This document shows positions 1,386-27,343 of a stretch of DNA of 64,000 nucleotides, in pieces. The DNA comes from a virus, in IMG/VR virus record IMGVR_UViG_3300011113_000747, positions 32,001 through 96,000 of that record; one strand, 5' to 3'. The notes beneath the pieces are model-generated. The model was given only the letters and a program-made list of their open reading frames with translations. It did no database searches and had not been told where the DNA came from. Made by a program: the position numbers and the translations under genes. Position 1 is the first letter of the stretch, and every line of letters starts with the position of its first letter.

Positions 1386-1405
1386 ATTTATTTTATTTAT
1401 TTAAC

Positions 1406-2539: not shown

Positions 2540-2550
2540 CTTAATATTTA

Positions 2551-4185: not shown

Positions 4186-4207
4186 ATCTTTATTATAGCT
4201 TATACCT

Positions 4208-5317: not shown

Positions 5318-5333
5318 ACAGATAATTAATAAA

Positions 5334-5874: not shown

Positions 5875-5875
5875 G

Positions 5876-16740: not shown

Positions 16741-17352
16741 ATGTATATGAGTCAAAAATACGATTTAATTGCAGCTGAAGAAGCTTATGGTAAATTTTTA
16801 GAGGCTTTAGGCTTCGATTGGAAAAATAATCCGCATATGGAAGATACCCCACATCGAGTTGCTAAAGCTTGGGTGCATGATCTTGCAAGAGGTTGTTTTG
16901 AAAACGAACCAAAGATTACAGCATTTGAAAACGATGGTCAGTATGATGGTATGGTTTGTCAAACAAACATTCCAGTAATCAGTATGTGTGCACATCATAA
17001 TCTTCCTTTTATGGGTTATGCTCACGTTGCATACATTCCATCTCCAGATGGTAAAGTGATTGGTCTTTCGAAATTGAATCGAATTGTCGATTATATTTCT
17101 CGTCGTCCTTCTGTGCAAGAAACTTTGAATATGGACATTCATAAGTTCATTGATAAAGTTTGCTCTAATAATAAAGGTGTTGCAGTTATGGTTGAAGCAA
17201 ATCATACTTGTTGCTCTTTGCGTGGTATTAAGCAGAATTCAACAATGAGAACAGCTCGTATGTCTGGTTCATTTCATGAGCTTGGAGATAATAGCCGAAA
17301 TGAATTCTATAAATTTATTGAATTTGCACAAAATAGTCGGTCGTTAGTTTAA
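16741..17352 (+). CDS. folE: GTP cyclohydrolase I
   Basis: DTPHRVAK, SMCAHHNLPF, GLSKLNRIV, EANHTCCSLRG. Confidence 0.93.
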   Translation: MYMSQKYDLIAAEEAYGKFLEALGFDWKNNPHMEDTPHRVAKAWVHDLARGCFENEPKITAFENDGQYDGMVCQTNIPVISMCAHHNLPFMGYAHVAYIPSPDGKVIGLSKLNRIVDYISRRPSVQETLNMDIHKFIDKVCSNNKGVAVMVEANHTCCSLRGIKQNSTMRTARMSGSFHELGDNSRNEFYKFIEFAQNSRSLV

Positions 17353-18266: not shown

Positions 18267-18341
18267 GGCTGCTTAGCTGAGATAGATTAGCGTCTGCCTG
18301 AAGAGCAGAATAGACTGGAGCGTTACCAGTAGCAGCCACCA
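18267..18341 (+). tRNA. tRNA-Phe(GAA)
   Basis: GGCTGCT/AGCAGCC acceptor; TCTGC-CTGAAGA-GCAGA; T-loop AGCGTTA; encoded CCA. Confidence 0.85.
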
Positions 18342-18409
18342 TTTTTAGTTGGAGAACTGATCCTTCAGACTTTCGGTGATCTGAAGCAAAGAAAACACCG
18401 TACAATTTC

Positions 18410-18498
18410 GGGACCTGCCCCCATCAATGGACTGTAAATCCATTGCCATTAATAAGATGGGAAGTTGGCAAGTGGTGCGTTACCACCAGGGCCCACCA
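18410..18498 (+). tRNA. tRNA-Tyr(GTA)-like, lacking a D-arm
   Basis: GGGACCT/AGGGCCC; ATGGA-CTGTAAA-TCCAT; T-arm GTGG-TGCGTTA-CCAC; ACCA. Confidence 0.65.
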
Positions 18499-18504
18499 TT
18501 TCAA

Positions 18505-18591
18505 GTTGGAGACATCGCGCTGTGTTGTCTTTAAAACGCTAACCAACAAGAACAAACCAGTCGTGTCTGCTGGTATAGAAAAAGACACACA
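18505..18591 (+). ncRNA. Candidate pseudoknotted RNA element
   Basis: GTTGG/CCAAC stem; its loop TGTGTTGTCTTT is complementary to downstream AAAGACACACA; intervening ACCAG/CTGGT hairpin. Confidence 0.4.
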
Positions 18592-18592
18592 T

Positions 18593-18685
18593 GGAGAGAG
18601 TCCGGCTAGACGAGGAGCAATCTTGGAAAGATTGTAGACGCAGCTCTGCTGGGTCTGGTGGGTGCGAGTCCCCCTCTCTCCTCCA
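18593..18685 (+). tRNA. tRNA-Ser(GGA)
   Basis: GGAGAGA/TCTCTCC; CAATC-TTGGAAA-GATTG; long variable arm; T-loop TGCGAGT. Confidence 0.85.
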
Positions 18686-18691
18686 TTTTCT

Positions 18692-18781
18692 GGGTAGTTA
18701 ACTAGACAAGCGCGCTAGGACCGACTTGAAATCGGATCGAGGTGTAAAAGCCTTGGGGTGCAAGCCCTCAGCTGCCCGCCA
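18692..18781 (+). tRNA. tRNA-Ser(TGA)
   Basis: GGGTAGT/GCTGCCC; CCGA-CTTGAAA-TCGG; variable arm; GCCA. Confidence 0.85.
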
Positions 18782-18787
18782 TTTTTT

Positions 18788-18862
18788 GCGGATATAATTC
18801 AGTGGTAGAATATCTCGTTGCCAACGAGAGTGTCGTCGGTTCAAATCCGACTATCCGCTCCA
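18788..18862 (+). tRNA. tRNA-Gly(GCC)
   Basis: Canonical cloverleaf; CTCGT-TGCCA-ACGAG; TCCA. Confidence 0.92.
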
Positions 18863-18871
18863 TTTTCAAAA

Positions 18872-18946
18872 GCGGTGTAGATGTTAATGGCTGCACACCT
18901 GACTTCCAATCAGAAGGAGGGGGTTCGATTCCCCCACACCGCACCA
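18872..18946 (+). tRNA. tRNA-Gly(TCC)
   Basis: GCGGTGT/ACACCGC; CTGA-CTTCCAA-TCAG; GGTTCGA. Confidence 0.9.
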
Positions 18947-18953
18947 ATTTTAA

Positions 18954-19030
18954 CGGGATGTAGCTCAGCCTGGTAGAGCGCTTGCTTTGGGAGCAAGATG
19001 TCGTCGGTTCGAATCCGGCTATCCCGACCA
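18954..19030 (+). tRNA. tRNA-Pro(TGG)
   Basis: Canonical; CTTGC-TTTGGGA-GCAAG. Confidence 0.92.
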
Positions 19031-19035
19031 TTTAT

Positions 19036-19128
19036 GGAGAGTTAACTGGACAAGCGCGCCAGGGATGTTTGCTAAACATCACGCACTTCCCTCAGAGGTG
19101 TGCGGGGCAGGACCGCAGCTCTCCTCCA
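19036..19128 (+). tRNA. tRNA-Ser(GCT)
   Basis: GATGT-TTGCTAA-ACATC; variable arm; T-loop GGCAGGA. Confidence 0.85.
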
Positions 19129-19136
19129 TTTTTATT

Positions 19137-19213
19137 CGGGTGGTGTCTGGACAAGTAAACGAGCTCGGTTTGGATCCGAGTATATGTGGGAGCGTTACCC
19201 ACTCACCCGACCA
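19137..19213 (+). tRNA. tRNA-Pro(TGG), second divergent copy
   Basis: CGGGTGG/TCACCCG; CTCGG-TTTGGAT-CCGAG; T-loop AGCGTTA. Confidence 0.8.
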
Positions 19214-19223
19214 ATTTCAAAAA

Positions 19224-19312
19224 TCCCCCTTAGCTCAGTGGTAGAGCGCTTGGCTGTTAACCAGGAGGCCCTTATAAGGTATAGCGACGATCGTAACGTC
19301 GAGGGGGAGCCA
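19224..19312 (+). tRNA. tRNA-Asn(GTT) with long variable arm
   Basis: TCCCCCT/AGGGGGA; CTTGG-CTGTTAA-CCAGG; variable hairpin CCTTATAAGG; T-arm CGACG-ATCGTAA-CGTCG. Confidence 0.8.
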
Positions 19313-19321
19313 ATTTCAAAA

Positions 19322-19407
19322 GCAGGTGTGGGTCAATTGGTTGACCAACAGACTTTTAATCTGTGCGAGTAATCGCTATGTGGGTTCGAGTCCCATCGCC
19401 TGCACCA
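19322..19407 (+). tRNA. tRNA-Lys(TTT) with long variable arm
   Basis: ACAGA-CTTTTAA-TCTGT; variable arm GCGA-GTAA-TCGC; canonical T-arm. Confidence 0.85.
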
Positions 19408-19416
19408 ATTTCAAAT

Positions 19417-19493
19417 ATCCGGCCATGTTCCAAGGCTAGGCGACGCGGACTCCAAATTTGCGTGGGTCAGTTCAATTCTGACGCCGGATGCCA
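19417..19493 (+). tRNA. tRNA-Trp(CCA)
   Basis: ATCCGGC/GCCGGAT; GCGGA-CTCCAAA-TTTGC. Confidence 0.8.
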
Positions 19494-19501
19494 TTTCAAA
19501 T

Positions 19502-19577
19502 GCCCCATTAGTATAACGGACAGAACACTCGGCTACGAACCGAGAGAAGGTAGGTTCAATTCCTCCATGGGGTACCA
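19502..19577 (+). tRNA. tRNA-Arg(ACG)
   Basis: GCCCCAT/ATGGGGT; CTCGG-CTACGAA-CCGAG. Confidence 0.9.
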
Positions 19578-19580
19578 TTT

Positions 19581-19655
19581 CGCGCAATGGTGTAAGGTAA
19601 AGCACGCTGGCCACACTGGCGCCAGAGGAAGGGTGAAAAGCCTGATGCGCAACCA
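19581..19655 (+). pseudogene. Degenerate tRNA-like unit, anticodon not readable
   Basis: GCGCA/TGCGC acceptor, D-arm-like TGGTGTAAGGTAAAGCAC, CTGGC/GCCAG arm with a 9-nt loop, 3' ACCA. Confidence 0.5.
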
Positions 19656-19663
19656 TTTCAAAT

Positions 19664-19742
19664 GCTCCAGAAGCTACAGTAGACGGGCAGCTGGCTCTTA
19701 ACCAGAAGATTCGTGTGGTTGCAACTACCACCTGGAGTACCA
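19664..19742 (+). tRNA. tRNA-Lys(CTT)
   Basis: GCTCCAG/CTGGAGT; CTGG-CTCTTAA-CCAG; T-loop TGCAACT. Confidence 0.85.
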
Positions 19743-19752
19743 ATTTCAAAAA

Positions 19753-19829
19753 GCCCCGGTAGCATAACTGGTAACTGCAGCAGTCTCAAACACTGAAGAG
19801 TGTCGGTTCGAATCCGACTCGGGGTACCA
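19753..19829 (+). tRNA. tRNA-Leu(CAA) with short variable loop
   Basis: CAGT-CTCAAAC-ACTG; 5-nt variable loop; canonical T-arm; A73. Confidence 0.8.
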
Positions 19830-19834
19830 ATTAA

Positions 19835-19921
19835 GGAAGCACCAGCTGAGATGGACGCTCTGCGGAGAAGTGTTACTTGTGCAAGAAAGCTAAACGAACG
19901 CTTTCCAGCTGACTTCCACCA
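19835..19921 (+). ncRNA. CCA-ended tRNA-like small RNA
   Basis: GGAAG/CTTCC plus CAGCTG/CAGCTG closing stems, internal hairpins, 3' ACCA followed by the array spacer ATTTCA. Confidence 0.5.
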
Positions 19922-19928
19922 ATTTCAT

Positions 19929-20027
19929 GGGAGTGTGAAGCCAAAGGCTAGGCTAGTGGTTCGATTCCACTTTAATTGCTGGTGCACTCGACGGAGCAAG
20001 AGGGTTCGAATCCCTTCACTTCCACCA
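19929..20027 (+). tRNA. tRNA-Ser(CGA) with extra-long variable arm (99 nt)
   Basis: GGGAGTG/CACTTCC; AGTGG-TTCGATT-CCACT; TTGCT/AGCAA variable arm; A73. Confidence 0.75.
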
Positions 20028-20036
20028 ATTTCAAAT

Positions 20037-20120
20037 GGGCTTGTGGATAACCAGAAACAGCAGAATGGCTCGGCTTAAACCCGATGATCCTTGAGGGTGC
20101 AACTCCCTTCAAGCCTACCA
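20037..20120 (+). tRNA. tRNA-Leu(TAA), enlarged D region, short variable loop
   Basis: GGGCTTG/CAAGCCT; TCGG-CTTAAAC-CCGA; T-loop TGCAACT. Confidence 0.75.
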
Positions 20121-20128
20121 ATTTCAAT

Positions 20129-20205
20129 GCCCTGGTAGCATAACTGGCAACTGCGTCTGACTTAGGATCAGAAGAATGGGGGTTCGAATCCCTCTCAGGG
20201 TACCA
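20129..20205 (+). tRNA. tRNA-Leu(TAG) with short variable loop
   Basis: TCTGA-CTTAGGA-TCAGA (G37); D-arm nearly identical to Leu(CAA). Confidence 0.85.
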
Positions 20206-20213
20206 ATTTCAAA

Positions 20214-20288
20214 GGCCTATAAGCATAGATAGCGATGTATCCGTTTTGTAGTCGGAATAGGAGTGCGCAAGTCACTCATGGGCCTCCA
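20214..20288 (+). tRNA. tRNA-Thr(TGT)
   Basis: GGCCTAT/ATGGGCC; TCCG..TTTGTAG..CGGA; T-loop CGCAAGT. Confidence 0.8.
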
Positions 20289-20294
20289 TTTTAT

Positions 20295-20369
20295 TACCCT
20301 CTAGTGTAATGGTTAACACACCTGACTTTGACTCAGGTAGTCCTCGTTCGAATCGAGGGAGGGTAGCCA
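20295..20369 (+). tRNA. tRNA-Gln(TTG)
   Basis: TACCCTC/GAGGGTA; CCTGA-CTTTGAC-TCAGG. Confidence 0.9.
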
Positions 20370-20379
20370 ATTTTCAAAT

Positions 20380-20442
20380 GGGGTGTCCTGTGCCGCCTAG
20401 CAGGGTAATGGAAAATCTTGGGCTAACCTCCACATTCCACCA
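20380..20442 (+). ncRNA. 63-nt CCA-ended mini tRNA-like RNA
   Basis: GGGGTGT/ACATTCC acceptor-like stem plus ACCA; only two internal hairpins. Confidence 0.45.
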
Positions 20443-20451
20443 ATTTCAAAT

Positions 20452-20529
20452 AACCCTATCGTATAGTCTGGTTGAGTATGTCTGTCTCTGAAACAGAAGG
20501 CCCTGGTTCAAATCCAGGTAGGGTTGCCA
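20452..20529 (+). tRNA. tRNA-Gln(CTG)
   Basis: AACCCTA/TAGGGTT; TCTGT-CTCTGAA-ACAGA. Confidence 0.88.
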
Positions 20530-20551
20530 ATTTCAAACAACAAACACAAAC

Positions 20552-20833
20552 ATGTGGCCAAGCATTAATAATTTTAAAATCTTATCACCAAAAGAAAAAT
20601 GTATAGCTGCATTTCATTATTGGGTTGAAACACAAACAGATGGTAGTGTTTCTTGGAGACATGCAAATACATGTACAACTTCTCTAACACAAAAGCAGCA
20701 GATGCATTATAGAAAATATTATGAAGTGCTTCATGCAATTAGGTTTGTTATTCATACTGAACGCTATGATTTGCTAATTTCTGAGCATCAAGCATTGAAT
20801 GCTCTCAATGATGGCAACAATGTTTTAGTTTAG
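20552..20833 (+). CDS. Hypothetical protein inserted in the tRNA array
   Basis: 93 aa AT-rich ORF filling the gap between tRNAs. Confidence 0.55.
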   Translation: MWPSINNFKILSPKEKCIAAFHYWVETQTDGSVSWRHANTCTTSLTQKQQMHYRKYYEVLHAIRFVIHTERYDLLISEHQALNALNDGNNVLV

Positions 20834-20839
20834 TAAAAA

Positions 20840-20914
20840 TGCTCTCGGGAGGTAAGGATCTCGGACCGTCTCATAAGCGGTGTTAAGTGGGTGCAATCCC
20901 CACGGGAGCGACCA
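20840..20914 (+). tRNA. tRNA-Met(CAT), elongator Met or Ile2 not distinguishable
   Basis: TGCTCTC/GGGAGCG; ACCGT-CTCATAA-GCGGT; T-loop TGCAATC. Confidence 0.8.
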
Positions 20915-20920
20915 ATTTAA

Positions 20921-20936
20921 GGAAATACGATATAAT
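20921..20936 (+). promoter_or_regulatory. GGAAA-N5-TATAAT promoter (internal to array)
   Basis: ggaaa tacga tataat. Confidence 0.6.
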
Positions 20937-20957
20937 AATAGAGTAATAAATTTAAAA

Positions 20958-21035
20958 GTCCCTGTAGTTAACGGAAGGCTATAACATCGCCCTTTCACGG
21001 CGAAATACCCGGTTCGACCCCGGGTGGGGATGCCA
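20958..21035 (+). tRNA. tRNA-Glu(TTC)
   Basis: TCGCC-CTTTCAC-GGCGA; GGTTCGA. Confidence 0.88.
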
Positions 21036-21044
21036 ATTTCAAAT

Positions 21045-21118
21045 GACCCTGTAGATTAATAGTAAATCGCCACGCTTTCAACGTGAAGACGACGGAGCAT
21101 AACCGTCCTGGGTTGCCA
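21045..21118 (+). tRNA. tRNA-Glu(TTC), second divergent copy
   Basis: CACG-CTTTCAA-CGTG; T-loop AGCATAA. Confidence 0.8.
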
Positions 21119-21127
21119 ATTTCAAAT

Positions 21128-21205
21128 AGAGCCGAAGTCAAACAGCATTGACGCTCGCCTGTCGAGCGAGATATAAAGTGGGGGCAGCACCCATCGGCTC
21201 TGCCA
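21128..21205 (+). tRNA. tRNA-Asp(GTC)
   Basis: AGAGCCG/CGGCTCT; CTCGC-CTGTCGA-GCGAG; T-loop GGCAGCA. Confidence 0.82.
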
Positions 21206-21213
21206 ATTTCAAT

Positions 21214-21289
21214 CCTTCTGTAGCTGAGTGGTTTTTAGCAGCGTCTTGATAAGGCGCAGACGTAGGTTCAATTCCTACCAGAAGGACCA
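21214..21289 (+). tRNA. tRNA-Ile(GAT)
   Basis: CCTTCTG/CAGAAGG; GCGTC-TTGATAA-GGCGC. Confidence 0.9.
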
Positions 21290-21297
21290 ATTTCAAA

Positions 21298-21373
21298 AGC
21301 CCTATAGCCCAACAGCAGAGGCAATACGTTAAGGGCGTATTCAGTGCAGGTGCAAATCCTGCTAGGGGTACCA
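21298..21373 (+). tRNA. tRNA-Leu(AAG) with short variable loop
   Basis: ATACG-TTAAGGG-CGTAT (A34, G37); T-loop TGCAAAT; one acceptor-stem mismatch. Confidence 0.72.
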
Positions 21374-21378
21374 ATTTT

Positions 21379-21561
21379 ATGAAAATAATTGTCAACACAG
21401 AACAAGAAAAGATTGCTTTATTAAAAGCTTCAAAATACATTCATGATCTAAAATGTTTAGATACAAGCGATGATGCTGTTAATACAATAGCTCATTTGTA
21501 TTGTGCACCATTTTTAATTGAAGTTGATCCTAATTTAAAAATTTCAGTTGAACAACAATAG
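21379..21561 (+). CDS. Hypothetical protein inserted in the tRNA array
   Basis: 60 aa AT-rich ORF between tRNAs. Confidence 0.5.
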   Translation: MKIIVNTEQEKIALLKASKYIHDLKCLDTSDDAVNTIAHLYCAPFLIEVDPNLKISVEQQ

Positions 21562-21576
21562 GAAAGAGTATATAAT
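21561..21576 (+). promoter_or_regulatory. GGAAA-N5-TATAAT promoter
   Basis: TTGAAC-17 nt-TATAAT with GGAAA in the spacer. Confidence 0.65.
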
Positions 21577-21593
21577 ATTGTTGTAGATAAAAA

Positions 21594-21669
21594 TCCCAAG
21601 TAGCTCAGCGGTAGTAGCGAGTGGCTGTTAACCACTAGGTCGCTGGTTCGATCCCAGCCTTGGGAGCCA
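21594..21669 (+). tRNA. tRNA-Asn(GTT), canonical copy
   Basis: TCCCAAG/CTTGGGA; AGTGG-CTGTTAA-CCACT. Confidence 0.92.
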
Positions 21670-21679
21670 TTTTCAAAAT

Positions 21680-21753
21680 TGCAGGTAGGTGGTCTAGTGA
21701 CCATTCTGGGCTCATAACCCGGAGAGCGTGGTGCGATTCCCGGCCTGTTACCA
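21680..21753 (+). tRNA. Initiator tRNA-fMet(CAT)
   Basis: GGG/CCC anticodon stem around CTCATAA; 1:72 mismatch; T-loop TGCGATT. Confidence 0.8.
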
Positions 21754-21761
21754 ATTTCAAT

Positions 21762-21837
21762 GCCCGGTTAGCTCAGCGGTAGTAGCACCGCCTTTACACG
21801 GCGACTGTCGCAGGTTCAATCCCTGCACCGGGTACCA
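21762..21837 (+). tRNA. tRNA-Val(TAC)
   Basis: CGCC-TTTACAC-GGCG; canonical. Confidence 0.9.
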
Positions 21838-21843
21838 GTTTAT

Positions 21844-21919
21844 GGGGCCATAGCACAATTGGTAGTGCACCTGCTTTGCAAGCAGAAGGTTACCGGTTCG
21901 ACTCCGGTTGGCTCCACCA
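21844..21919 (+). tRNA. tRNA-Ala(TGC)
   Basis: GGGGCCA/TGGCTCC with G3:U70; CTGC-TTTGCAA-GCAG. Confidence 0.92.
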
Positions 21920-21929
21920 ATTTCTAAAT

Positions 21930-22025
21930 GATCGGCGTCTGAAAAGGTAAGAGAAACCTCTCCCACTGCAAACGTTAGCAGATGAAGTTTTGAGCTTTCA
22001 TAACGACGAGTATACCTGGTCACCA
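21930..22025 (+). ncRNA. CCA-ended multibranch small RNA
   Basis: GATCGG/CTGGTC plus ACCA; CGTC/GACG inner stem enclosing three hairpins. Confidence 0.5.
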
Positions 22026-22030
22026 ATTTC

Positions 22031-22170
22031 AGAACATTCAATCAACCGCAACACAGAGGTCGATCTTGCAAGCCGAGTACCTCTGACGGCTCTGATAACA
22101 GGTGCGCTTGCACGAGCCTTGCGAATGGTTCTGCATGCACCAGCTGAATTAGCTACTCAGTGTGGTGCTA
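22031..22170 (+). ncRNA. Candidate structured RNA
   Basis: AGAACATTC/GAATGGTTCT, CGCAA/TTGCG, CAGAGG/CCTCTG, GGCTC/GAGCC, then a GCACCA/TGGTGC hairpin. Confidence 0.45.
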
Positions 22171-22201
22171 AATTTTTTAATTAACTATAATAAATATTAA
22201 C

Positions 22202-22660
22202 ATGAAAAAAGATTTAAAACTCATTGCAGAAGCTTATAACAAGGTTATTATTGAACAAATAACTGATGATTGGTTTCAACAAGGAGCATTTCAAGCTTAT
22301 AAAAAGCCAGCAAAAGAACCATATCAAGTTGCAAAGCAAGATGGTGTGTTACAGACCTTAGAAGGACCACAACAATACAAAGCTGGTTTTTATATTATTA
22401 CAGGACCGAAAGGTGAAAAATATTCGATGCCTCCAGAAAAATTCAATGAATTAAAAGATGATAACGGGGATGGTACAGCTTCACCTAAAAAAATTATTAA
22501 GCAAGTAAAATTAGCTGATTCAGATGGTGTTGTAAAAACTTCATGGGGAGCTGATTTACAATATAAGTCTGGGGAAGATTATATTGTTAAACATGGTCCG
22601 GGTGATTATGGTGTGGTAAAGAAAGATATTTTTCAGCAAACATACGTATCCGAACAATAA
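22202..22660 (+). CDS. PGDYG-motif protein (duplicated domain)
   Basis: HGPGDYGVVKKDIFQQTY; two similar halves; TAAATA at 22191. Confidence 0.75.
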   Translation: MKKDLKLIAEAYNKVIIEQITDDWFQQGAFQAYKKPAKEPYQVAKQDGVLQTLEGPQQYKAGFYIITGPKGEKYSMPPEKFNELKDDNGDGTASPKKIIKQVKLADSDGVVKTSWGADLQYKSGEDYIVKHGPGDYGVVKKDIFQQTYVSEQ

Positions 22661-22670
22661 ATTTTTCAAT

Positions 22671-22745
22671 GCGCAATGAGCCAGCTGGCGTAGGCAGCGG
22701 TCTGCAAAATCGCTTAGTAGGGTTCGATTCCCTAATTGCGCTCCA
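22671..22745 (+). tRNA. tRNA-Cys(GCA)
   Basis: GCGCAAT/ATTGCGC; GCGGT-CTGCAAA-ATCGC; U73. Confidence 0.9.
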
Positions 22746-22770
22746 ATTCTAGTACGCGTATCCGGCGCTA

Positions 22771-22836
22771 GGCTCGTCGCTGGTTAATTCTAGACATCTG
22801 AGATTCCAAATTTCAGATGAAGTTAACGGGCCGCCA
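22771..22836 (+). ncRNA. Long hairpin ending in GCCA
   Basis: GGCTCG/CGGGCC, GTTAA/TTAAC and CATCTGA/TCAGATG stacked stems. Confidence 0.4.
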
Positions 22837-22858
22837 ATTTTTTTAGTTGAATTAGATA

Positions 22859-22874
22859 GGAAATATCTTATAAT
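22859..22874 (+). promoter_or_regulatory. GGAAA-N5-TATAAT promoter
   Basis: TTGAAT-16 nt-TATAAT with GGAAA in the spacer. Confidence 0.65.
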
Positions 22875-22897
22875 AAAGGTGTAAACAAACAACAAAA

Positions 22898-22980
22898 GCC
22901 CCGGTAGCGGATCCGCCTTCTAAGCGGAGCATTGTACCGTAATTGGACGCATACAGGTTCGAGTCCTGTTCGGGGTACCA
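22898..22980 (+). tRNA. tRNA-Arg(TCT)-like, lacking a D-arm
   Basis: GCCCCGG/TCGGGGT; 7-nt linker; TCCGC-CTTCTAA-GCGGA; CGT-AATTGG-ACG hairpin; ACAGG-TTCGAGT-CCTGT; ACCA. Confidence 0.7.
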
Positions 22981-22990
22981 TTTTTCAAAA

Positions 22991-23067
22991 TCCCTGCGTA
23001 TCATAATTAGTTAATGTCCTCGCCTGTGAAGCGAGCTAAGACGGGGCAGAACCGTCCCAGGGAACCA
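22991..23067 (+). tRNA. tRNA-His(GTG) without G-1/C73
   Basis: CTCGC-CTGTGAA-GCGAG; T-loop GGCAGAA; discriminator A. Confidence 0.78.
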
Positions 23068-23074
23068 TTTCATC

Positions 23075-23362
23075 ATGACAACCACACGCAAAGATAAAAT
23101 TTTAGTTTTCCAACACAAAATAACTAATTTATATTTAGCAGTATGGCGTGAGCCGGGATCAACTTCTTATTTTTGGACATATGATGTTAATGATGCTATG
23201 CAGTCAAATGTATGGGATGAAAATCATGCAATTTTTCAGAACATTGAAAAGGCAGACCCTGCAAAATATTTTGACCCCATGAGAAGCAATGAAATTAAAG
23301 ATTGCAAACTTGTAATGTTTGAAAAAGAGTCTACAATCAATTACAAACAAATTTCATCATGA
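23075..23362 (+). CDS. Hypothetical protein
   Basis: 95 aa ORF; ATGA overlap with the next ORF. Confidence 0.6.
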   Translation: MTTTRKDKILVFQHKITNLYLAVWREPGSTSYFWTYDVNDAMQSNVWDENHAIFQNIEKADPAKYFDPMRSNEIKDCKLVMFEKESTINYKQISS

Positions 23363-23706
23363 CAACATCAACAATCATCAATGAAGATTATGCAATGGAG
23401 CTTACGATGTTGCATCGTTACAGAGACCTTTCAGATGGTCTTTCGGTAATAGAATTTGATTGCAACTTTGATTGGTATCATGGTGATCATTGTCCAAAGT
23501 TTGATTTGAGTCTGAGATTATTCAATTGGACTATTTTTGAGTTTAACATCTACAACAGACATCATGTTGTAGATGAAATAGGCGATGTTTTATTGCCTTG
23601 GGCAAAACAAGATTTTGAAGAATCAGACAAAGCTTTTATAGAGCTTGTAAAAAATTCCGGAATAGTTGCAAACGAGGGTTCGAAACCTCCAGTAGCATCT
23701 AACTGA
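23359..23706 (+). CDS. Hypothetical protein
   Basis: 115 aa ORF, translationally coupled to the previous one. Confidence 0.6.
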   Translation: MTTSTIINEDYAMELTMLHRYRDLSDGLSVIEFDCNFDWYHGDHCPKFDLSLRLFNWTIFEFNIYNRHHVVDEIGDVLLPWAKQDFEESDKAFIELVKNSGIVANEGSKPPVASN

Positions 23707-23940
23707 GATTCAAAGCATCGAAGTTTATAGGTTTGAACGACGGGTTGTTGGCCCGGTAGGTGTGTTCGAGTGCACACGTGCTTTGAGTCTCGACAATTCA
23801 TCTGGCTGTTGCAATGAGGTAAAGACCCAACGCAATGCCAAATAGTCCAAAAAGTAAGAGTAAAATATTCATAAGGGCTGCATTTCAAAACTATGGCAAA
23901 GCTTTTGCTATAGCGATGAAAATTGCAGCAATGCAAAAAA
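23705..23940 (+). ncRNA. Candidate structured RNA with a tRNA-like cloverleaf closed by a 13-bp stem
   Basis: GAGATTCAAAGCA/TGCTTTGAGTCTC encloses three hairpins including GTGTG-TTCGAGTG-CACAC; further long hairpins follow. Confidence 0.55.
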
Positions 23941-23996
23941 ATCCAAGAAACATGTGGATTATCTCAAGGAAGTTCATATAGTTATTTATTCAAAAT

Positions 23997-24084
23997 GCTG
24001 GTGTGGCTGAGCGGCCTAAAGCACTAGTTTTGTAAACTAGCGGGAGTGATCCCATCGTCAGTTCGAATCTGACCACCAGCTCCA
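23997..24084 (+). tRNA. tRNA-Thr(TGT) with long variable arm and class II-type D-arm
   Basis: GCTGGTG/CACCAGC; GGCTGAGCGGCCTAAAGC; CTAGT-TTTGTAA-ACTAG; GGGA-GTGA-TCCC. Confidence 0.88.
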
Positions 24085-24090
24085 TCTTCC

Positions 24091-24270
24091 ATGAACAATC
24101 GCAGATCATTCTTCAAAAGACTCATTGGCTTAATCGCTGCACCAAAGGTTGCGAAAGCAACACACTCAAGCAACATAGTCAAAATGTGGACACCTGAAAC
24201 AGGTGTTACATATGGTGAGTATATTCATCCAGGCATTTGTATTAAACAAATTGACAAAACGGGGAGTTAG
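24091..24270 (+). CDS. 59 aa protein with a twin-arginine-like N-terminus
   Basis: Manual translation MNNRRSFFKRLIGLIAAPKVAKA...; stop overlaps the tRNA-Val 5' end. Confidence 0.5.
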   Translation: MNNRRSFFKRLIGLIAAPKVAKATHSSNIVKMWTPETGVTYGEYIHPGICIKQIDKTGS

Positions 24271-24334
24271 TATAGAAGCAGTACATTGGCTCGACACGCC
24301 AAAGAAGAAGGAGCGTTACCTTCACTCCCTACCA
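24261..24334 (+). tRNA. tRNA-Val(GAC)
   Basis: GGGGAGT/ACTCCCT; TTGGC-TCGACAC-GCCAA (C33); T-loop AGCGTTA. Confidence 0.8.
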
Positions 24335-24345
24335 TAAATATATTC

Positions 24346-24828
24346 ATGAAGTTTGATGATGTTGTAAACGAAGCACTTTCACGTCTTTCGCCTGTAAAAC
24401 TATATAGAGGAGCTGAACCAGATGAGGATCCTTCGAGTGAAGTAGAAAGACCTTGGGCCCAAGGTCGTGAATTAGATTTTCGTGCTGCATTTATGAAAGG
24501 AGATGTTGATGAAGTTATCAGCATGCTGCGTAAGCATGCTGGTGATTCTGGTGTAAGAGCAAAAGGTATAAAGTCATATTCTTTGAATAGAGATGTAGCA
24601 AAAGAGTTTATTTTCGACAAAGGTATAATTAAAGAATTAGATATACCCGCTAAAAACATAATTTCATCAAGACAAAGACTACAAACAATTTTATCTTTAC
24701 CTGATCAACAAAAACAGCAACTGCTCGATCAGGGTGTAGGATTCAACGTTAATAGATTGCTTTCCAAATATAAATTTGCTGCATCTGATCCAGATACAGA
24801 GCAAGAAATAATGATTTACAAAAAGTAA
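24346..24828 (+). CDS. Putative ADP-ribosyltransferase (R-S-E type)
   Basis: LYRG, SYSLNRDVAKEF, EQEIMI. Start moved to ATG 24346 because the track start lies inside the tRNA; TAAATA at 24335. Confidence 0.6.
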   Translation: MKFDDVVNEALSRLSPVKLYRGAEPDEDPSSEVERPWAQGRELDFRAAFMKGDVDEVISMLRKHAGDSGVRAKGIKSYSLNRDVAKEFIFDKGIIKELDIPAKNIISSRQRLQTILSLPDQQKQQLLDQGVGFNVNRLLSKYKFAASDPDTEQEIMIYKK

Positions 24829-24906
24829 GCCAACTATCGCTCCACCCGACAGATAGCTTTGCATGACGGTGCAAATGACCCTGAAAATCGCAAGGAGCAA
24901 AATCAT

Positions 24907-24981
24907 GGTTTCTAAGCATAGACAGCGATGCACACGATTGGTATTCGTGATAGAGGAGCGCAAATCTCCTAGGAGCCTCCA
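24907..24981 (+). tRNA. tRNA-Thr(GGT)
   Basis: GGTTTCT/AGGAGCC; CACGA-TTGGTAT-TCGTG; T-loop CGCAAAT. Confidence 0.82.
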
Positions 24982-25001
24982 TTTTTCAGTGGAACCTTAA
25001 A

Positions 25002-25017
25002 GGAACTACGTTATAAT
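25002..25017 (+). promoter_or_regulatory. GGAAC-N5-TATAAT promoter variant
   Basis: ggaac tacgt tataat, just upstream of ORF 25022. Confidence 0.55.
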
Positions 25018-25021
25018 AAAA

Positions 25022-26071
25022 GTGAAGTTAAAACAAAAACTAAACTTAAAACATATGACAGAAACGTTAGAACAACTCAAAGAAACAGTCAAAAGCCATA
25101 CCATTGTGCCTTTTAGCGCACGTAATATTGCTTGCGAAAAAAATACACTCATTATCAATGACCGATATGTTGTTGATCAACCAAAGAAAGTTCTCGAGAC
25201 TCTAGGTATTCGAGATAATCTCATCAAGGAAATTTTTGATAAACCTGATGTTAATTGGGGCGCCATTCGTGATGCTCTTAATACTATCGATGATAAAAAG
25301 TCTTTTGGTGGTATTGTGGATAAAAACAACCGCATGCTTAATCTCACTAAGGCTGTAAAAGAAGAAACTCAGCTTGACTTTGATAAGCGTCTTGATGAGC
25401 TTTTTAATGCTATTGATGGTAGCCAAAGTAATGAACTTCAGAGTGCAATTTGGAGTCCAAGTGATTGTGCAGTTCATGTCAATTCTATTAATCGCTCAAG
25501 TGATATTGATTGCGGTGCTGGTGATATTTGGAAGTTTGGTACAACTACTATCATTGGAGACGCTATGCAACAGTTCAAGAATTATTTTCTTCGTCTAGTC
25601 TGCACAAACGGTATGACCACACGAGATAACATTGCATATCGAGCTGCTACAGCTTCTGTTAATATTGCTAAGCAGTTTGTGAAGTTTGCTAGCGATGGTG
25701 CTTTTGCAAATCAAATTACCCCTCGTGTTAATCGTCTTCGCAACAATCGAGCTTCTCTTTATGAGCTTACCTCTGTTGCTGATTGTCTTAACGCAGAACA
25801 GCGTGATACGTTTATGCCTGAATATGGCTATACCGTTGAACACTTTAAGAACGCTGGTCACCCAGTCGACGGCTTCTCAGCAGCTCGTAAGAAATTTGTT
25901 TATACAAATGAAAATCTTTATGATGTCTTTAATGTTGCAACCAATCTCGCAACACATCAGCGCGATGTGATCGGTGATGCTGCAGCAATGAGGCTCAATA
26001 AGGTTGCTGGTGAAATCTTCTCAAAAGGTCCGAATCTTGATATTCAGATTTTAGATCTTTGGAAGAACTAA
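25022..26071 (+). CDS. DUF932-like protein
   Basis: YFLRLVCTNGM motif; 349 aa. Confidence 0.55.
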   Translation: MKLKQKLNLKHMTETLEQLKETVKSHTIVPFSARNIACEKNTLIINDRYVVDQPKKVLETLGIRDNLIKEIFDKPDVNWGAIRDALNTIDDKKSFGGIVDKNNRMLNLTKAVKEETQLDFDKRLDELFNAIDGSQSNELQSAIWSPSDCAVHVNSINRSSDIDCGAGDIWKFGTTTIIGDAMQQFKNYFLRLVCTNGMTTRDNIAYRAATASVNIAKQFVKFASDGAFANQITPRVNRLRNNRASLYELTSVADCLNAEQRDTFMPEYGYTVEHFKNAGHPVDGFSAARKKFVYTNENLYDVFNVATNLATHQRDVIGDAAAMRLNKVAGEIFSKGPNLDIQILDLWKN

Positions 26072-26078
26072 AAACTTC

Positions 26079-26123
26079 GGTGGGTAACTAGTACATAAAA
26101 AATATTAGTTACCCACCAAAAAA
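26079..26123 (+). terminator. Inverted repeat / probable terminator
   Basis: GGTGGGTAACTA...TAGTTACCCACC 12-bp stem after the stop codon. Confidence 0.6.
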
Positions 26124-26138
26124 TAGTAGATTTATAAA

Positions 26139-26154
26139 GGAAAGTAGCTAAAAT
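26139..26154 (+). promoter_or_regulatory. GGAAA-N5-TAAAAT promoter
   Basis: TAGATT-16 nt-TAAAAT with GGAAA; precedes the 350-nt structured region. Confidence 0.55.
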
Positions 26155-26160
26155 AAATAC

Positions 26161-26510
26161 ATAAGAGCGACAAAAAGCTCGATGATCTTTGATAAATTCC
26201 GTGGTGGCAGAACAATGGGTCGCCAGCCCATAATGCACTAAGCAACGTCTGAAAAGACGCCAGGTAGGTTGAAAAAGTTATGCCGGATAAAGCTGAAATA
26301 ACCAAGATTGGTCAAATCTTGAGTGACGTAAGAAGACAACAAATCGTTATTATACGACTGATGGCTGTATTGTCTTGGAGGTAACCATTCCTCTCTATCA
26401 TTAACAATGAGAGTAATTAACTCATTGGATAGTGGCTGAATAATCCGACATAATGGAGACTTGTGAGTAGTCAGGAATCTCACCCACACTAATTTCTCTC
26501 GCAAGAGAAT
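26161..26510 (+). ncRNA. Candidate large structured ncRNA or structured leader
   Basis: Many short hairpins (GAGC/GCTC, ATGGG/CCCAT, CGTC/GACG, CAAGATT/AATCTTG, TCGT/ACGA, TCATT/AATGA, TTCTC-TCGCAA-GAGAA); no credible + strand ORF. Confidence 0.55.
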
Positions 26511-26531
26511 AGAAAGGAAACACACATACAC

Positions 26532-26747
26532 ATGAATAAAAACGCATATGAAATCAGGCTAGATGTTCTTGGTATGGCTCATGGTACTATCATGAATCAA
26601 TACCACGAAAAGATTGGTCAGCTTCGCGATAATGCAAATCGTACAAATCATCAGTTTGATGTTGAGCTTATTGATAAGCTTATGCCGAAAACGGCAGACA
26701 TCATTGCTTATGCAAACGAATTGTATTCCTTCGTAGAAGGCAAATAG
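26532..26747 (+). CDS. Conserved phage hypothetical protein
   Basis: NAYEIRLDVL.MA motif; AAAGGA SD upstream. Confidence 0.7.
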   Translation: MNKNAYEIRLDVLGMAHGTIMNQYHEKIGQLRDNANRTNHQFDVELIDKLMPKTADIIAYANELYSFVEGK

Positions 26748-26797
26748 AGTCAAAGTGGTGCTGGATAACCACATTAAACACCAGTAAATATATACAT

Positions 26798-26893
26798 GCT
26801 CCAGTAGCTCAATTGGTAGAGCGGAAGGCTTATACCCTTCGTATGCACCAGATTAGTGCGCGGTTGTCGGTTCGAGCCCGGCCTGGAGTACCA
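26798..26893 (+). tRNA. tRNA-Ile(TAT) with long variable arm
   Basis: GCTCCAG/CTGGAGT; GAAGG-CTTATAC-CCTTC; GCAC-CAGATTA-GTGC variable arm. Confidence 0.85.
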
Positions 26894-26899
26894 ATTTTC

Positions 26900-27343
26900 G
26901 GGGGCGTTCTGGTTTCGACTCAATTGGTTGAATCAAGTTCGCATGCAGAGGTAGACTAGCTGGCCTCTATAAAAGCAAGTCAAAAAACATAAACGCAGAA
27001 GACACTGAAGTCGATGCCCTCTTAGCACAAGCTGAGTACATCTTCAACAACGCTGACGAATTCGTCACCGCTGATGTTGAAGAAGCTCTCTTTGCCTAAG
27101 CAAAAACAGAAATGGATCCTATTAAAATTTCTGAGGTAACCAATAGGTTGAGCTGAACAATGTATGCTCTTAAATCAAACATTGGGGTGACCTCGGACTC
27201 TTCACCGAAGTAGGTAGGCTCTAAAACTTAGGTTGATACGCCATGCAAACCTGTTGCCAATGAAATTGCAAATGTATCTAAGCATGTAGACAACTTAGCT
27301 GATACTATTGAACACAGGGGTTCGACTCCCCTCGCCTCCACCA
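26900..27343 (+). ncRNA. ssrA: tmRNA
   Basis: GGGGGCG...GGTTTCGAC 5' end; GGGGTTCGACTCCCC-TCGCCTCCACCA 3' end with G3:U; tag frame 26995-27099 after ATAAAC. Confidence 0.95.

What the first reader, a model, noticed from the sequence alone, without database searches (positions are those of the whole stretch)
18267..24981. Covarying non-canonical T-loops (G55) in 18 of 38 tRNAs
Seen: T-loops AGCGTTA (x3), TGCAACT (x2), TGCGTTA, TGCGAGT, TGCAAGC, GGCAGGA, ATCGTAA, CGCAAGT, TGCAATC, AGCATAA, GGCAGCA, TGCAAAT, TGCGATT, GGCAGAA and CGCAAAT. C56 and purine 57 are invariant, 17 have G55, and positions 54/58 mostly covary (T-A, A-T, G-G). Established: U54/U55 are the TrmA/TrmFO and TruB substrates, and some toxins cut there. 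Inference: selection keeps the elbow fold while removing the T-psi-C signature, giving modification independence or nuclease evasion. Standard tRNA finders may score these genes as pseudogenes.
Basis: partly seen in the sequence, partly recalled or inferred. Interest (0 to 1): 0.7.

Follow-up and report, generated by a model that had tools for sequence, protein, structure and literature searches.

The report
Phage tRNAs with a rewired elbow
Seventeen of the 38 tRNA genes in this freshwater phage replace the near-universal tRNA corner contact G18-U55 with a matched A18-G55 pair. They look like working tRNAs built on an alternative corner that I did not find described in the papers I could search.

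Summary
There are 38 CCA-ended tRNA units with an anticodon, 18 lack the TTC T-loop, 17 have G55, and C56 and R57 are invariant. The 54/58 pairs among the 18 are T-A 7, A-T 5, G-G 3, C-A 2 and T-T 1.

Every U55 unit has G18-G19 in its D-loop (19/19). G55 units have A18-G19 (14/15 evaluable; Fisher p = 1e-8).

In 248 unique units from about 50 phage contigs the split is 158 GG/UC against 57 AG/GC (p = 2e-36).

Orthologues in a sister phage keep these loops through compensatory stem changes. They also show concerted switches at 18/55, 19/56 and 54/58.

The variant units provide the only Phe, Tyr, Asp and His tRNAs of the genome.

One variant T-arm recurs exactly in at least 48 viral contigs, but in tRNA context in only 4 of 185,579 bacterial species genomes.

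Best reading: these are functional tRNAs whose elbow is locked as in riboswitch T-loops, with G at loop position 2 and an intercalated A. This removes the U54-U55 site used by TruB, by TrmA and by a published T-loop nuclease. The benefit is not shown.

This scan has noted the same rewiring on other DNA, in at least 118 genomes.

The parts
18267..26893 (+). tRNA array: 43 CCA-ended units. 38 have an anticodon (18 with non-TTC T-loops, 20 TTC-type) and 5 have none. Small ORFs are interspersed.
   Evidence: The 19 evaluable TTC-type units all carry G18-G19 in the D-loop. A homologous array lies in the sister phages G001/G002.
18267..18341 (+). tRNA-Phe(GAA), rewired elbow; the only Phe tRNA of the genome
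   Evidence: T-loop AGCGTTA (A54.T58, G55); D-loop AGATAGAT (A18 G19, no GG); all four stems fully paired; A73. Missed by ARAGORN and Rfam.
18410..18498 (+). tRNA-Tyr(GTA), G55 T-loop, no D-arm; the only Tyr tRNA
   Evidence: T-loop TGCGTTA (T54.T58). About 10 nt stand in place of the D-arm, and an extended stem encloses the anticodon hairpin. A18 cannot be assigned. Covered by RNA-library contigs with 1-3 differences.
18593..18685 (+). tRNA-Ser(GGA), class II, G55
   Evidence: T-loop TGCGAGT; D-loop GGCTAGACGA (internal AG); long variable arm; T-stem 4 of 5 pairs. An RNA-library contig covers 18592-18791 with 1 difference.
18692..18781 (+). tRNA-Ser(TGA), class II, G55
   Evidence: T-loop TGCAAGC; D-loop ACAAGCGCG (A18 G19) closed by CTAG/CTAG.
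19036..19128 (+). tRNA-Ser(GCT), class II, G55
   Evidence: T-loop GGCAGGA (G54.G58); D-loop ACAAGCGCG. The orthologue in G001 is 88/91 identical and has the same T-loop.
19137..19213 (+). tRNA-Pro(TGG), second copy, G55
   Evidence: T-loop AGCGTTA; D-loop GGACAAGTAAA (internal AAG); weak D-stem. It has the same C1:G72 and A73 as the TTC-type Pro at 18954.
19224..19312 (+). tRNA-Asn(GTT) with swapped 54/58 only (U55 kept) and a long variable arm
   Evidence: T-loop ATCGTAA (A54.T58, T55); D-loop AGTGGTA with G18 G19. This fits the 18/55 rule. ARAGORN and Rfam (35.3 bits) both find it.
19664..19742 (+). tRNA-Lys(CTT), G55
   Evidence: T-loop TGCAACT; D-loop ACAGTAGACG; U53:A61. The G001 orthologue keeps the T-loop and the D-loop core through 4 double (compensatory) stem changes.
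20037..20120 (+). tRNA-Leu(TAA), G55, irregular D region
   Evidence: T-loop TGCAACT. 26 nt lie between the acceptor and the anticodon stem. A18 is not assignable.
20214..20288 (+). tRNA-Thr(TGT), G55
   Evidence: T-loop CGCAAGT (C54.A58); D-loop AGATAGCG; A8.
20840..20914 (+). tRNA-Met(CAT), G55
   Evidence: T-loop TGCAATC; D-loop GTAAGGAT, which can be read as A18 G19 or as G18 G19. It lies on an RNA-library contig of depth about 1377.
21045..21118 (+). tRNA-Glu(TTC), second copy, G55
   Evidence: T-loop AGCATAA; D-loop AATAGTA. Infernal aligns A at 18 and G at 55 (48.6 bits). Its G001 orthologue has the same D-stem and anticodon arm but a canonical D-loop (GG) and a TTC T-loop.
21128..21205 (+). 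tRNA-Asp(GTC), G55; the only Asp tRNA
   Evidence: T-loop GGCAGCA (G54.G58); D-loop AACAGCAT; G73. The G001 orthologue is 74/78 identical with one compensatory acceptor pair. Its T-arm occurs exactly in at least 48 viral contigs. The family shows 96.7% pairing, and 13 of 21 pairs covary. Not found by Rfam even at E<=1.
21298..21373 (+). tRNA-Leu(AAG), G55, short variable loop
   Evidence: T-loop TGCAAAT; D-loop CAACAGCAGA. Infernal aligns A18 and G55 (37.3 bits).
21679..21753 (+). Initiator-like tRNA-Met(CAT), G55; least regular unit
   Evidence: T-loop TGCGATT; D-loop TCTAGTGA; three G:C pairs next to the anticodon loop. The T-stem has only 3 of 5 pairs, and the register leaves no discriminator base. 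Conserved 63/68 in G001.
22991..23067 (+). tRNA-His(GTG), G55; the only His tRNA
   Evidence: T-loop GGCAGAA (G54.G58); D-loop ATAATTAGTTAA. The G001 orthologue has AGCATTA (A54.T58) and 4 compensatory stem changes. It has A73 and no G-1:C73.
24261..24334 (+). tRNA-Val(GAC), G55
   Evidence: T-loop AGCGTTA; D-loop AGAAGCA; A73; C33 in place of U33. Rfam scores it 46 bits in sensitive mode only.
24907..24981 (+). tRNA-Thr(GGT), G55
   Evidence: T-loop CGCAAAT (C54.A58); D-loop AGACAGCG; A8; all stems fully paired.

Best explanation
These are working phage tRNA genes built on an alternative elbow. In canonical tRNA, G18 of the D-loop slots into the T-loop and bonds to U55 (pseudouridine). Here A18 slots in and bonds to G55. 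The outer pair G19:C56, purine 57 and G53:C61 (16 of 18) are kept. The 54.58 pair appears as U.A, A.U, G.G or C.A. This is how T-loops are built outside tRNA: in FMN and cobalamin riboswitches the preferred loop is UGHAA, with G at position 2 facing an adenine donated by the partner loop. The L-shape and the flat G19:C56 face used by RNase P, the ribosome and other partners should therefore be preserved. The U54-U55-C56 motif is gone.

Three consequences follow from the sequence. There can be no pseudouridine 55. There can be no m5U54 wherever 54 is not U. There is no UUC site for T-loop nucleases.

Shown here: the sequence pattern, the 18/55, 19/56 and 54/58 covariation, compensatory evolution, wide occurrence in phages, and presence in RNA libraries. 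Inferred: the A18.G55 geometry, charging, and use in translation.

The confidence of 0.8 refers to 'functional tRNAs with a structurally compensated elbow'. For the reason it is kept, my odds are: escape from T-loop-directed host nucleases about 0.35; a near-neutral alternative spreading with mobile arrays about 0.3; independence from TruB/TrmA about 0.1.
For: (1) Window: U55 units have G18-G19 in 19/19 cases. G55 units have A18-G19 in 14/15 cases, Fisher p=1e-8. Infernal's own alignment agrees.

(2) In 248 unique units from the genome, the sister phage and 50 viral loci, the (18-19, 55-56) split is GG/UC 158 and AG/GC 57. Of the 63 G55 units, 61 have no GG anywhere in the D-loop, and the other two can be read as A18 G19 G20. 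Fisher p=2e-36. Shuffled sequence gave 0 hits.

(3) Orthologues in G001, whose polymerase is 92% identical, show concerted switches: Cys G19:C56 to A19:U56; His G54.G58 to A54.U58; Glu A18/G55/A54.U58 to G18/U55/U54.A58. Lys, His and Asp keep their loops through 1-4 double stem changes.

(4) The variant tRNA-Asp family in 10 phage contigs has 96.7% of cells paired, 13 of 21 pairs changed on both sides, 0 of 500 shuffles as high, and slid controls of 36-48%.

(5) The variant units are the genome's only Phe, Tyr, Asp and His tRNAs, and with them all 20 amino acids are covered. Their discriminator bases match the TTC-type isoacceptors. In the wider set, identity marks are kept: G3:U70 in Ala, U73 in Gly and Cys, C73 in His, G73 in Asp.

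(6) RNA-library contigs cover variant units with 1-3 differences. One contig of depth about 1377 spans Met 20840 and Glu, against depth 5-10 on ORFs of the same stretch.

(7) Structural precedent: T-loop position 2 is almost always G where a terminal-loop receptor donates an adenine, and the optimum loop is UGHAA (bioRxiv 10.1101/2022.12.26.521914).
Against: There is no direct evidence of mature 5' and 3' ends, charging or ribosomal use. Contigs from RNA libraries cannot exclude DNA carry-over or related strains. The A18.G55 contact is inferred from covariation and analogy, not from a structure. Several variant units carry further defects: Tyr has no D-arm, Met 21679 has a 3/5 T-stem and no room for N73, Val has C33, Lys has U53:A61, and Leu-TAA has an irregular D region. 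Against a defence-escape payoff in this phage, 20 units keep TTC and the variant set lacks Gly, Ala, Arg, Cys, Gln, Ile and Trp. The host is unknown.
Confidence: 0.8

Rival explanations
1. The tRNAs are functional, but the rewired elbow brings no benefit. A18-G55 is a second, roughly equivalent solution. It was reached in redundant phage tRNA copies under relaxed selection, then spread by duplication, anticodon change and exchange of array modules. This agrees with the best explanation on what the units are and differs only on why the design persists.
For: Canonical and rewired units are mixed in one array. The mix differs between sister phages: Phe, Tyr and Ser-TGA are TTC-type in G001 and G55 in this phage, and Glu switches between the two. 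The variant set is incomplete. One T-arm is shared exactly by Asp, Glu, Gly and Met tRNAs in many contigs, as expected from module exchange.
Against: Drift alone does not explain the contrast between phages and bacteria: the T-arm is in tRNA context in at least 48 viral contigs but in only 4 of 185,579 species genomes. Nor does it explain why the loops stay fixed while the stems turn over.
Confidence: 0.3
2. The units are tRNA-like RNAs that do not serve translation, such as decoys for tRNA-targeting defences, primers, or amino-acid donors like the staphylococcal non-proteogenic tRNAGly.
For: The only well-studied bacterial tRNAs that lack G18-G19 and U55 are kept out of translation (PMC13443448). 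The array also holds 5 CCA-ended units with no anticodon arm and other odd architectures.
Against: The variants have normal 7-nt anticodon loops with U33 in 17 of 18. Their 17 different anticodons cover 13 amino acids, including the genome's only Phe, Tyr, Asp and His. Discriminator and acceptor identity marks are kept. G19:C56 is retained, unlike in the staphylococcal species.
Confidence: 0.07
3. The units are decaying pseudogenes, or an artefact of parsing or assembly.
For: ARAGORN and Rfam miss 13 of the 18. A few units have weak stems.
Against: Stems are maintained by compensatory changes. Loops are conserved between phages. Three tertiary pairs covary. The parser finds nothing in shuffles. 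An independent Infernal alignment agrees. Fourteen DNA runs from nine studies hold at least half of the stretch's sampled words, one of which may be the source sample.
Confidence: 0.03

Closest known systems
Canonical bacterial and phage elongator tRNAs (Rfam RF00005), including the large tRNA clusters of T4-like, T5-like and jumbo phages
   Same: Cloverleaf with 7/5-bp acceptor and T stems, a 7-nt anticodon loop, G19:C56, R57 and G53:C61. Genes are clustered in one transcription direction, and 20 units of this same array are fully canonical.
   Different: G18-U55 is replaced by A18-G55. The 54.58 pair is not restricted to U.A. Most variants score below the thresholds of standard finders.
Generic T-loop motif with its receptor in FMN and cobalamin riboswitches (bioRxiv 10.1101/2022.12.26.521914)
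   Same: The loop is of UGHAA type, with G at position 2 facing an adenine inserted from the partner loop. Four T-loops in this window read TGCAA, matching that optimum.
   Different: That motif docks two riboswitch helices. Here the same solution is used inside a tRNA elbow, where U at position 2 was regarded as the tRNA-specific rule.
Staphylococcal non-proteogenic tRNAGly NP1-3 (PMC13443448)
   Same: Bacterial tRNAs that lack U55 and therefore carry no m5U54 or pseudouridine 55.
   Different: These lack both G18 and G19, have a shortened anticodon loop and weak EF-Tu determinants, and are a single Gly species excluded from translation. The phage units keep G19:C56 and span 13 amino acids.
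tRNAPyl and type II mitochondrial tRNAs (PMC7609411)
   Same: Natural tRNAs without the GG and T-psi-C signatures.
   Different: These lose the standard D/T-loop interaction or replace it with unrelated contacts. Here the interaction is kept and re-coded pair by pair.
Phage tRNAs that counter tRNA-cleaving defences, such as T5 tRNATyr against retron-Eco7 and tRNALys against PrrC (PMC11555353)
   Same: Phage tRNA clusters used to survive host tRNA nucleases.
   Different: The known cases act by supplying extra tRNA or by changes in the anticodon loop. Resistance through the T-loop has not been reported, and the Cash paper leaves the fate of phage tRNAs open.
L-arrays: long, horizontally transferred bacterial tRNA operons such as the Anabaena trn operon (PMC8421152)
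   Same: Long dense arrays of accessory tRNA genes, mobile and linked to phages.
   Different: The paper's text never mentions T-loop, G18 or U55. I did not examine L-array sequences myself.

Membership tests
tRNA (Rfam RF00005 / canonical elongator tRNA) | Cloverleaf: 7-bp acceptor stem, 5-bp T-stem with 7-nt loop, 5-bp anticodon stem with 7-nt loop, D-arm | tested here: met
   Fifteen of the 18 variant units parse with 6-7 of 7 acceptor pairs, 4-5 of 5 T-stem pairs and 4-5 of 5 anticodon-stem pairs. The D-stem is fully paired in 11 and weak in 4 (Ser-GGA, Ser-TGA, Ser-GCT and Pro 19137 in the parser's register). Tyr lacks a D-arm, Leu-TAA has an irregular D region, and Met 21679 has a 3/5 T-stem.
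tRNA (Rfam RF00005 / canonical elongator tRNA) | U33 and purine 37 in the anticodon loop | tested here: met
   U33 in 17 of 18 (Val 24261 has C33); purine 37 in 18 of 18.
tRNA (Rfam RF00005 / canonical elongator tRNA) | G18-U55 tertiary contact (GG in the D-loop, T-psi-C in the T-loop) | tested here: not met
   Seventeen units have G55. Fourteen of the 15 evaluable have A18 G19 instead of GG. This is the point of the finding.
tRNA (Rfam RF00005 / canonical elongator tRNA) | G19:C56 outer elbow pair, R57, G53:C61 | tested here: met
   C56 and R57 in 18 of 18. G19 is assignable in 15. G53:C61 in 16 of 18.
tRNA (Rfam RF00005 / canonical elongator tRNA) | Score above the family's gathering threshold (29 bits) | tested here: inconclusive
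   Four of the 18 reach it (35.3, 37.3, 46.0 and 48.6 bits). The others are not reported even at E<=10. The model penalises exactly the rewired positions.
tRNA (Rfam RF00005 / canonical elongator tRNA) | Aminoacylation and use on the ribosome | not testable with these tools
   There are only indirect signs: kept identity marks, a complementary amino-acid set and RNA-library contigs.
Generic T-loop motif with intercalated adenine | Five-nt core closed by a 1.5 pair, G or U at position 2, a purine at position 4, and a partner base inserted between positions 4 and 5 | tested here: inconclusive
   The sequence rules are met (54.58 pair types, G55, R57) and A18 covaries with G55. The insertion geometry itself needs a structure.
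Non-proteogenic tRNAGly-like (non-translational) tRNAs | Loss of both G18 and G19, a shortened anticodon loop, a single Gly specificity | tested here: not met
   G19 is retained, the loops are 7 nt, and there are 17 different anticodons (PMC13443448).
Counter-defence phage tRNAs | Resistance to a host tRNA nuclease, and rescue of infection | not testable with these tools
   There is only the prediction from CbCash's need for U54 and U55. I found no Schlafen, RtcB, TruB or CCA-adding gene in the phage.

The most novel reading that the evidence does not exclude
The A18-G55 elbow is a widespread phage counter-defence. By re-coding the one tRNA motif common to all cellular tRNAs (U54-U55-C56) while keeping the fold, phages make tRNAs that T-loop-directed immune nucleases (Cash-type Schlafens, some CDI toxins) cannot cut and that host TruB and TrmA cannot mark. 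This would amount to a naturally orthogonal tRNA chassis.
Probability: 0.3. Interest if true: 0.9.

Novelty: new variant of a known kind. Interest (0 to 1): 0.75.

Why it matters
G18-pseudouridine 55 is taught as an invariant of tRNA architecture, and gene finders, modification enzymes and at least one immune nuclease rely on it. A natural, conserved and widespread class of tRNAs that swaps it for A18-G55 has several consequences.

- The elbow has a second workable code.
- Phage tRNA counts are likely to be underestimated where such genes are common. Here 13 of 38 tRNA genes are invisible to both ARAGORN and Rfam.
- There is a concrete test for whether phages evade T-loop-cutting defences.
- It offers a ready-made scaffold for tRNAs that escape host modification.

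Tried and rejected
- Relatives through the array ORF 25022-26071: none found in viral contigs.
- More distant relatives, with polymerase about 66% identical: four long contigs have no tRNA match and a fifth has only two, neither in an array. The comparison therefore rests on G001/G002.
The host's tRNA set could not be tabulated.
- Scan of bacterial genomes with the 17-nt T-arm: 30 of 34 hits are coding or chance matches, many in one conserved coding motif. Only 4 are tRNAs. The raw hit count is near random expectation and must not be quoted as prevalence.
- Phage-encoded partners (RtcB, CCA-adding enzyme, Schlafen, TruB): none found.
- Zero RNA depth over some ORFs: rejected as evidence of differential expression. 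The contigs there come from relatives that lack those ORFs, as the joints show. Only the depth contrast within run X18 is used, and only as a weak hint.
- Literature: searches for G55 or A18 with tRNA and phage, tRNA arrays and non-canonical tRNAs gave no description of this elbow. The two Steinberg-group selection papers on the 54-58 pair and the L-shape are not held. I cannot say whether A18/G55 was recovered in those libraries.
- Alternative T-arm registers (6-bp stem, 8/4 or 9/3 acceptor/T-stem): no better pairing, except for the unresolved Met 21679 unit.

Full report
**Context.** The window is bases 32001-96000 of a complete 184,542-bp IMG/VR phage record with terminal repeats. It is about 32% G+C and encodes a T4-type family B polymerase and replication helicases. 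DNA runs holding the stretch are mostly freshwater or drinking-water metagenomes. No cultured phage has a polymerase more than about 30% identical, so the host is unknown.

Between 18267 and 26893 lies a one-strand array. Every unit ends in an encoded CCA followed by an (A)TTTCAAA-like spacer. A tmRNA follows at 26900-27343.

**Check of the observation.** ARAGORN reports 21 tRNAs in the window. Rfam reports 19 at gathering score and 22 in sensitive mode. Anchoring a cloverleaf on each CCA gives 43 units, of which 38 have an anticodon.

- Seventeen of these have G55. The exception, Asn 19224, has A54/U55/U58.
- C56 and a purine at 57 occur in all 38.
- The 54/58 pairs among the 18 are T-A 7, A-T 5, G-G 3, C-A 2 and T-T 1.
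- Both standard finders miss 13 of the 18.

The numbers, coordinates and the remark about finders are all confirmed.

The D-loops change in step with the T-loops.

- All 19 evaluable U55 units carry G18-G19.
- Fourteen of the 15 evaluable G55 units carry A18-G19 and no GG. The remaining one, Met 20840, reads AAGG and is ambiguous. Fisher p = 1e-8.
- Infernal's own alignment of Glu 21045 and Leu 21298 to the tRNA consensus puts A under G18 and G under U55. The result therefore does not depend on my parser.

I then scanned the whole genome, the sister phage and 50 viral loci with the same parser. There were 359 units, 248 of them unique, and none in shuffled sequence.

- The (18-19, 55-56) combinations are GG/UC 158 and AG/GC 57.
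- Of the 63 G55 units, 61 have no GG, and the other two can be read as A18 G19 G20. Fisher p = 2e-36.
- In that set every G54 sits with G58 (29 of 29). G55 loops use only G.G, U.A, A.U, C.A and, once, U.U.
- This sample was seeded with one T-arm, so its 17 GGCAGCA loops are not independent. The pattern holds without them.

**Are these working genes?** Several lines of evidence say yes.

1. *Sister phage.* G001/G002 have a polymerase 92% identical and carry a homologous array at the same flank, with 70-93% DNA identity.
2. *Orthologous variant units keep their loops while their stems change on both sides*.
   - Lys-CTT has 4 double changes, with the T-loop unchanged and the D-loop core kept.
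   - His has 4 double changes.
   - Asp has 1 double change.
3. *Three orthologue pairs show concerted changes of tertiary partners*.
   - Cys goes from G19:C56 to A19:U56.
   - His goes from G54.G58 to A54.U58.
   - Glu keeps its D-stem and anticodon arm but switches A18/G55/A54.U58 to G18/U55/U54.A58.
4. *The variant tRNA-Asp family from ten phage contigs* has 96.7% of cells paired. Thirteen of 21 pairs change on both sides, including all seven acceptor pairs. No shuffle of 500 reaches this, and slid controls give 36-48%.
5. *Amino-acid coverage.* The variant units are the genome's only tRNAs for Phe, Tyr, Asp and His, and with them all 20 amino acids are covered.
6. *Identity marks.* Discriminator bases equal those of the TTC-type isoacceptors in the array. 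In the wider set the usual identity marks are kept: G3:U70 in Ala, U73 in Gly and Cys, C73 in His, G73 in Asp.
7. *RNA libraries.* Contigs from four freshwater RNA libraries of two studies cover variant units with 1-3 differences. In run X18 a contig of depth about 1377 spans Met 20840 and Glu, while contigs on ORFs of the same stretch have depth 5-10. This is what stable RNAs would give. Contigs cannot exclude DNA carry-over or related strains, so I count it as a weak hint.

**Distribution.** The 17-nt T-arm of the variant Asp (GTGGG-GGCAGCA-CCCAT) occurs exactly in 50 stretches from 48 viral contigs of 4.5-453 kb. Nearly all are inside CCA-ended cloverleaves. These have different acceptor and anticodon stems and different anticodons (Asp, Glu, Gly, Met), and always an A18-G19 D-loop.

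The same scan of one genome for each of 185,579 prokaryotic species gave 34 hits, about the number expected by chance. Only four are tRNAs: a Parcubacteria, a Saccharibacteria, a Bacillota and a Fraserbacteria assembly. The design is therefore common in phages and rare in cells.

Earlier notes of this scan report the same rewiring in at least 118 other genomes. I had reached the A18/G55 reading before opening them.

**How it most likely works.** In canonical tRNA, G18 inserts between 57 and 58 and bonds to pseudouridine 55. G19 pairs with C56 and forms the flat outer face of the elbow (PMC4810234, PMC7912444).

T-loops outside tRNA follow a different rule. In FMN and cobalamin riboswitches position 2 is almost always G where a terminal-loop receptor donates an adenine. 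The best loop there is UGHAA. Four loops in this window read TGCAA.

I therefore read these genes as tRNAs whose elbow is locked in the riboswitch manner, by A18 on G55, with G19:C56 unchanged. Partners that read the shape and the outer face should still work. Enzymes that read U54-U55 cannot: TruB for pseudouridine 55, and TrmA or TrmFO wherever 54 is not U. The geometry, the charging and the ribosomal use are inferences.

**Why it is kept.** This is not shown.

- *Counter-defence* is the most attractive payoff. The CRISPR-associated Schlafen nuclease CbCash cuts 5' of U55, targets UUC, and is blocked by single U54 or U55 mutations. Its authors leave the fate of phage tRNAs open (PMC13462974). 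Phage tRNAs are already known to counter anticodon nucleases (PMC11555353).
- *Against a complete escape role here*, 20 units keep TTC and the variant set lacks seven amino acids.
- *A near-neutral alternative design* spreading with mobile array modules fits the mosaic and the differences between sister phages. It does not explain the enrichment in phages.
- I found no phage gene for a Schlafen nuclease, TruB, RtcB or a CCA-adding enzyme.

**Comparison with what is known.** The units pass the tests for tRNA, except for the G18-U55 contact that they replace.

- They differ from the staphylococcal non-proteogenic tRNAGly, which lose both G18-G19 and U55 and are excluded from translation.
- They differ from tRNAPyl and mitochondrial tRNAs, which lose the standard loop-loop interaction.
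- The L-array paper does not mention T-loops.
- Searches of the held literature for A18 or G55 with tRNA gave nothing relevant.
- Two selection studies on the 54-58 pair and the L-shape are not held, so prior recovery of such variants in vitro cannot be excluded.

**Verdict.** This is a new variant of a known kind: a conserved, phage-enriched, structurally compensated tRNA elbow.

Noticed in passing
window 19582-19655, 19836-19921, 20379-20442, 21930-22025, 22750-22836: Five CCA-ended units with acceptor-like closing stems but no assignable anticodon arm. Unit 19582-19655 is 71/74 identical in the sister phage G001, so at least that one is conserved.
   Followed up: partly
window 26182-26496: RNA-library depth is very high here (about 640 to 6050, against about 10 in neighbouring bins of run X18). 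The segment is non-coding and lies upstream of tRNA-Ile(TAT) and the tmRNA. Rfam gives only weak manA-like hits. This is probably an abundant unknown small RNA.
   Followed up: no
window 26900-27343: A phage-encoded tmRNA (Rfam 105 bits) with a canonical TTC T-loop. ARAGORN does not report it. It directly follows a 96-nt tRNA-Ile(TAT) that has a 25-nt variable region.
   Followed up: no
window 27363-27884: The protein next to the tmRNA carries a cREC_REC 'cyclic-phosphate processing receiver' domain (E=2e-25). By its Pfam name the domain is tied to cyclic-phosphate RNA ends, but no RtcB is present in the phage.
   Followed up: partly
window 22991-23067; L091 6729-6803 (-): The only tRNA-His has A73 and no G-1:C73, in both sister phages. 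Variant tRNA-His genes in other phage contigs have the usual C73. From memory, A73 without G-1 is the rule in some alphaproteobacteria, so this may be a clue to the host.
   Followed up: no
L091 6896-6970 (-), orthologue of window 22671-22745: The sister phage's tRNA-Cys has A19 paired with U56 (D-loop AGCTGATGTA, T-loop TTTGATT) where this phage has G19:C56. Other contigs show U19:A56 and C19:G56. The outer elbow pair is also being re-coded in phages.
   Followed up: partly
L093-L142 (viral contigs): An identical 17-nt T-arm (GTGGG-GGCAGCA-CCCAT) is shared by tRNAs of different amino-acid specificity (Asp, Glu, Gly-GCC, Gly-TCC, Met) in many unrelated contigs, while all other stems vary. The cause is unexplained. 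It could be module exchange, or a partner that reads this exact arm.
   Followed up: partly
window 18410-18498 and 22898-22980: tRNA-Tyr(GTA) and tRNA-Arg(TCT) have no D-arm. Each has a hairpin with a D-loop-like GG string 3' of the anticodon arm. Earlier notes of the scan treat this separately.
   Followed up: no
window 19224-19312, 19322-19407, 23997-24084, 26798-26893: Long variable arms occur on class I anticodons (Asn, Lys, Thr, Ile), while the Leu units in the array have short variable loops.
   Followed up: no
(wider set); window units Thr 20214, Thr 24907, Lys 19664, Asp 21128: A8 replaces the near-invariant U8 in 19 of 63 G55 units, against 6 of 179 U55 units, mostly together with A14. 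This second core position departs along with the rewired elbow.
   Followed up: partly
window 16741-17352: A GTP cyclohydrolase I gene (E=2e-48) lies just upstream of the array. From memory, this enzyme starts the 7-deazaguanine (queuosine-type) pathway.
   Followed up: no
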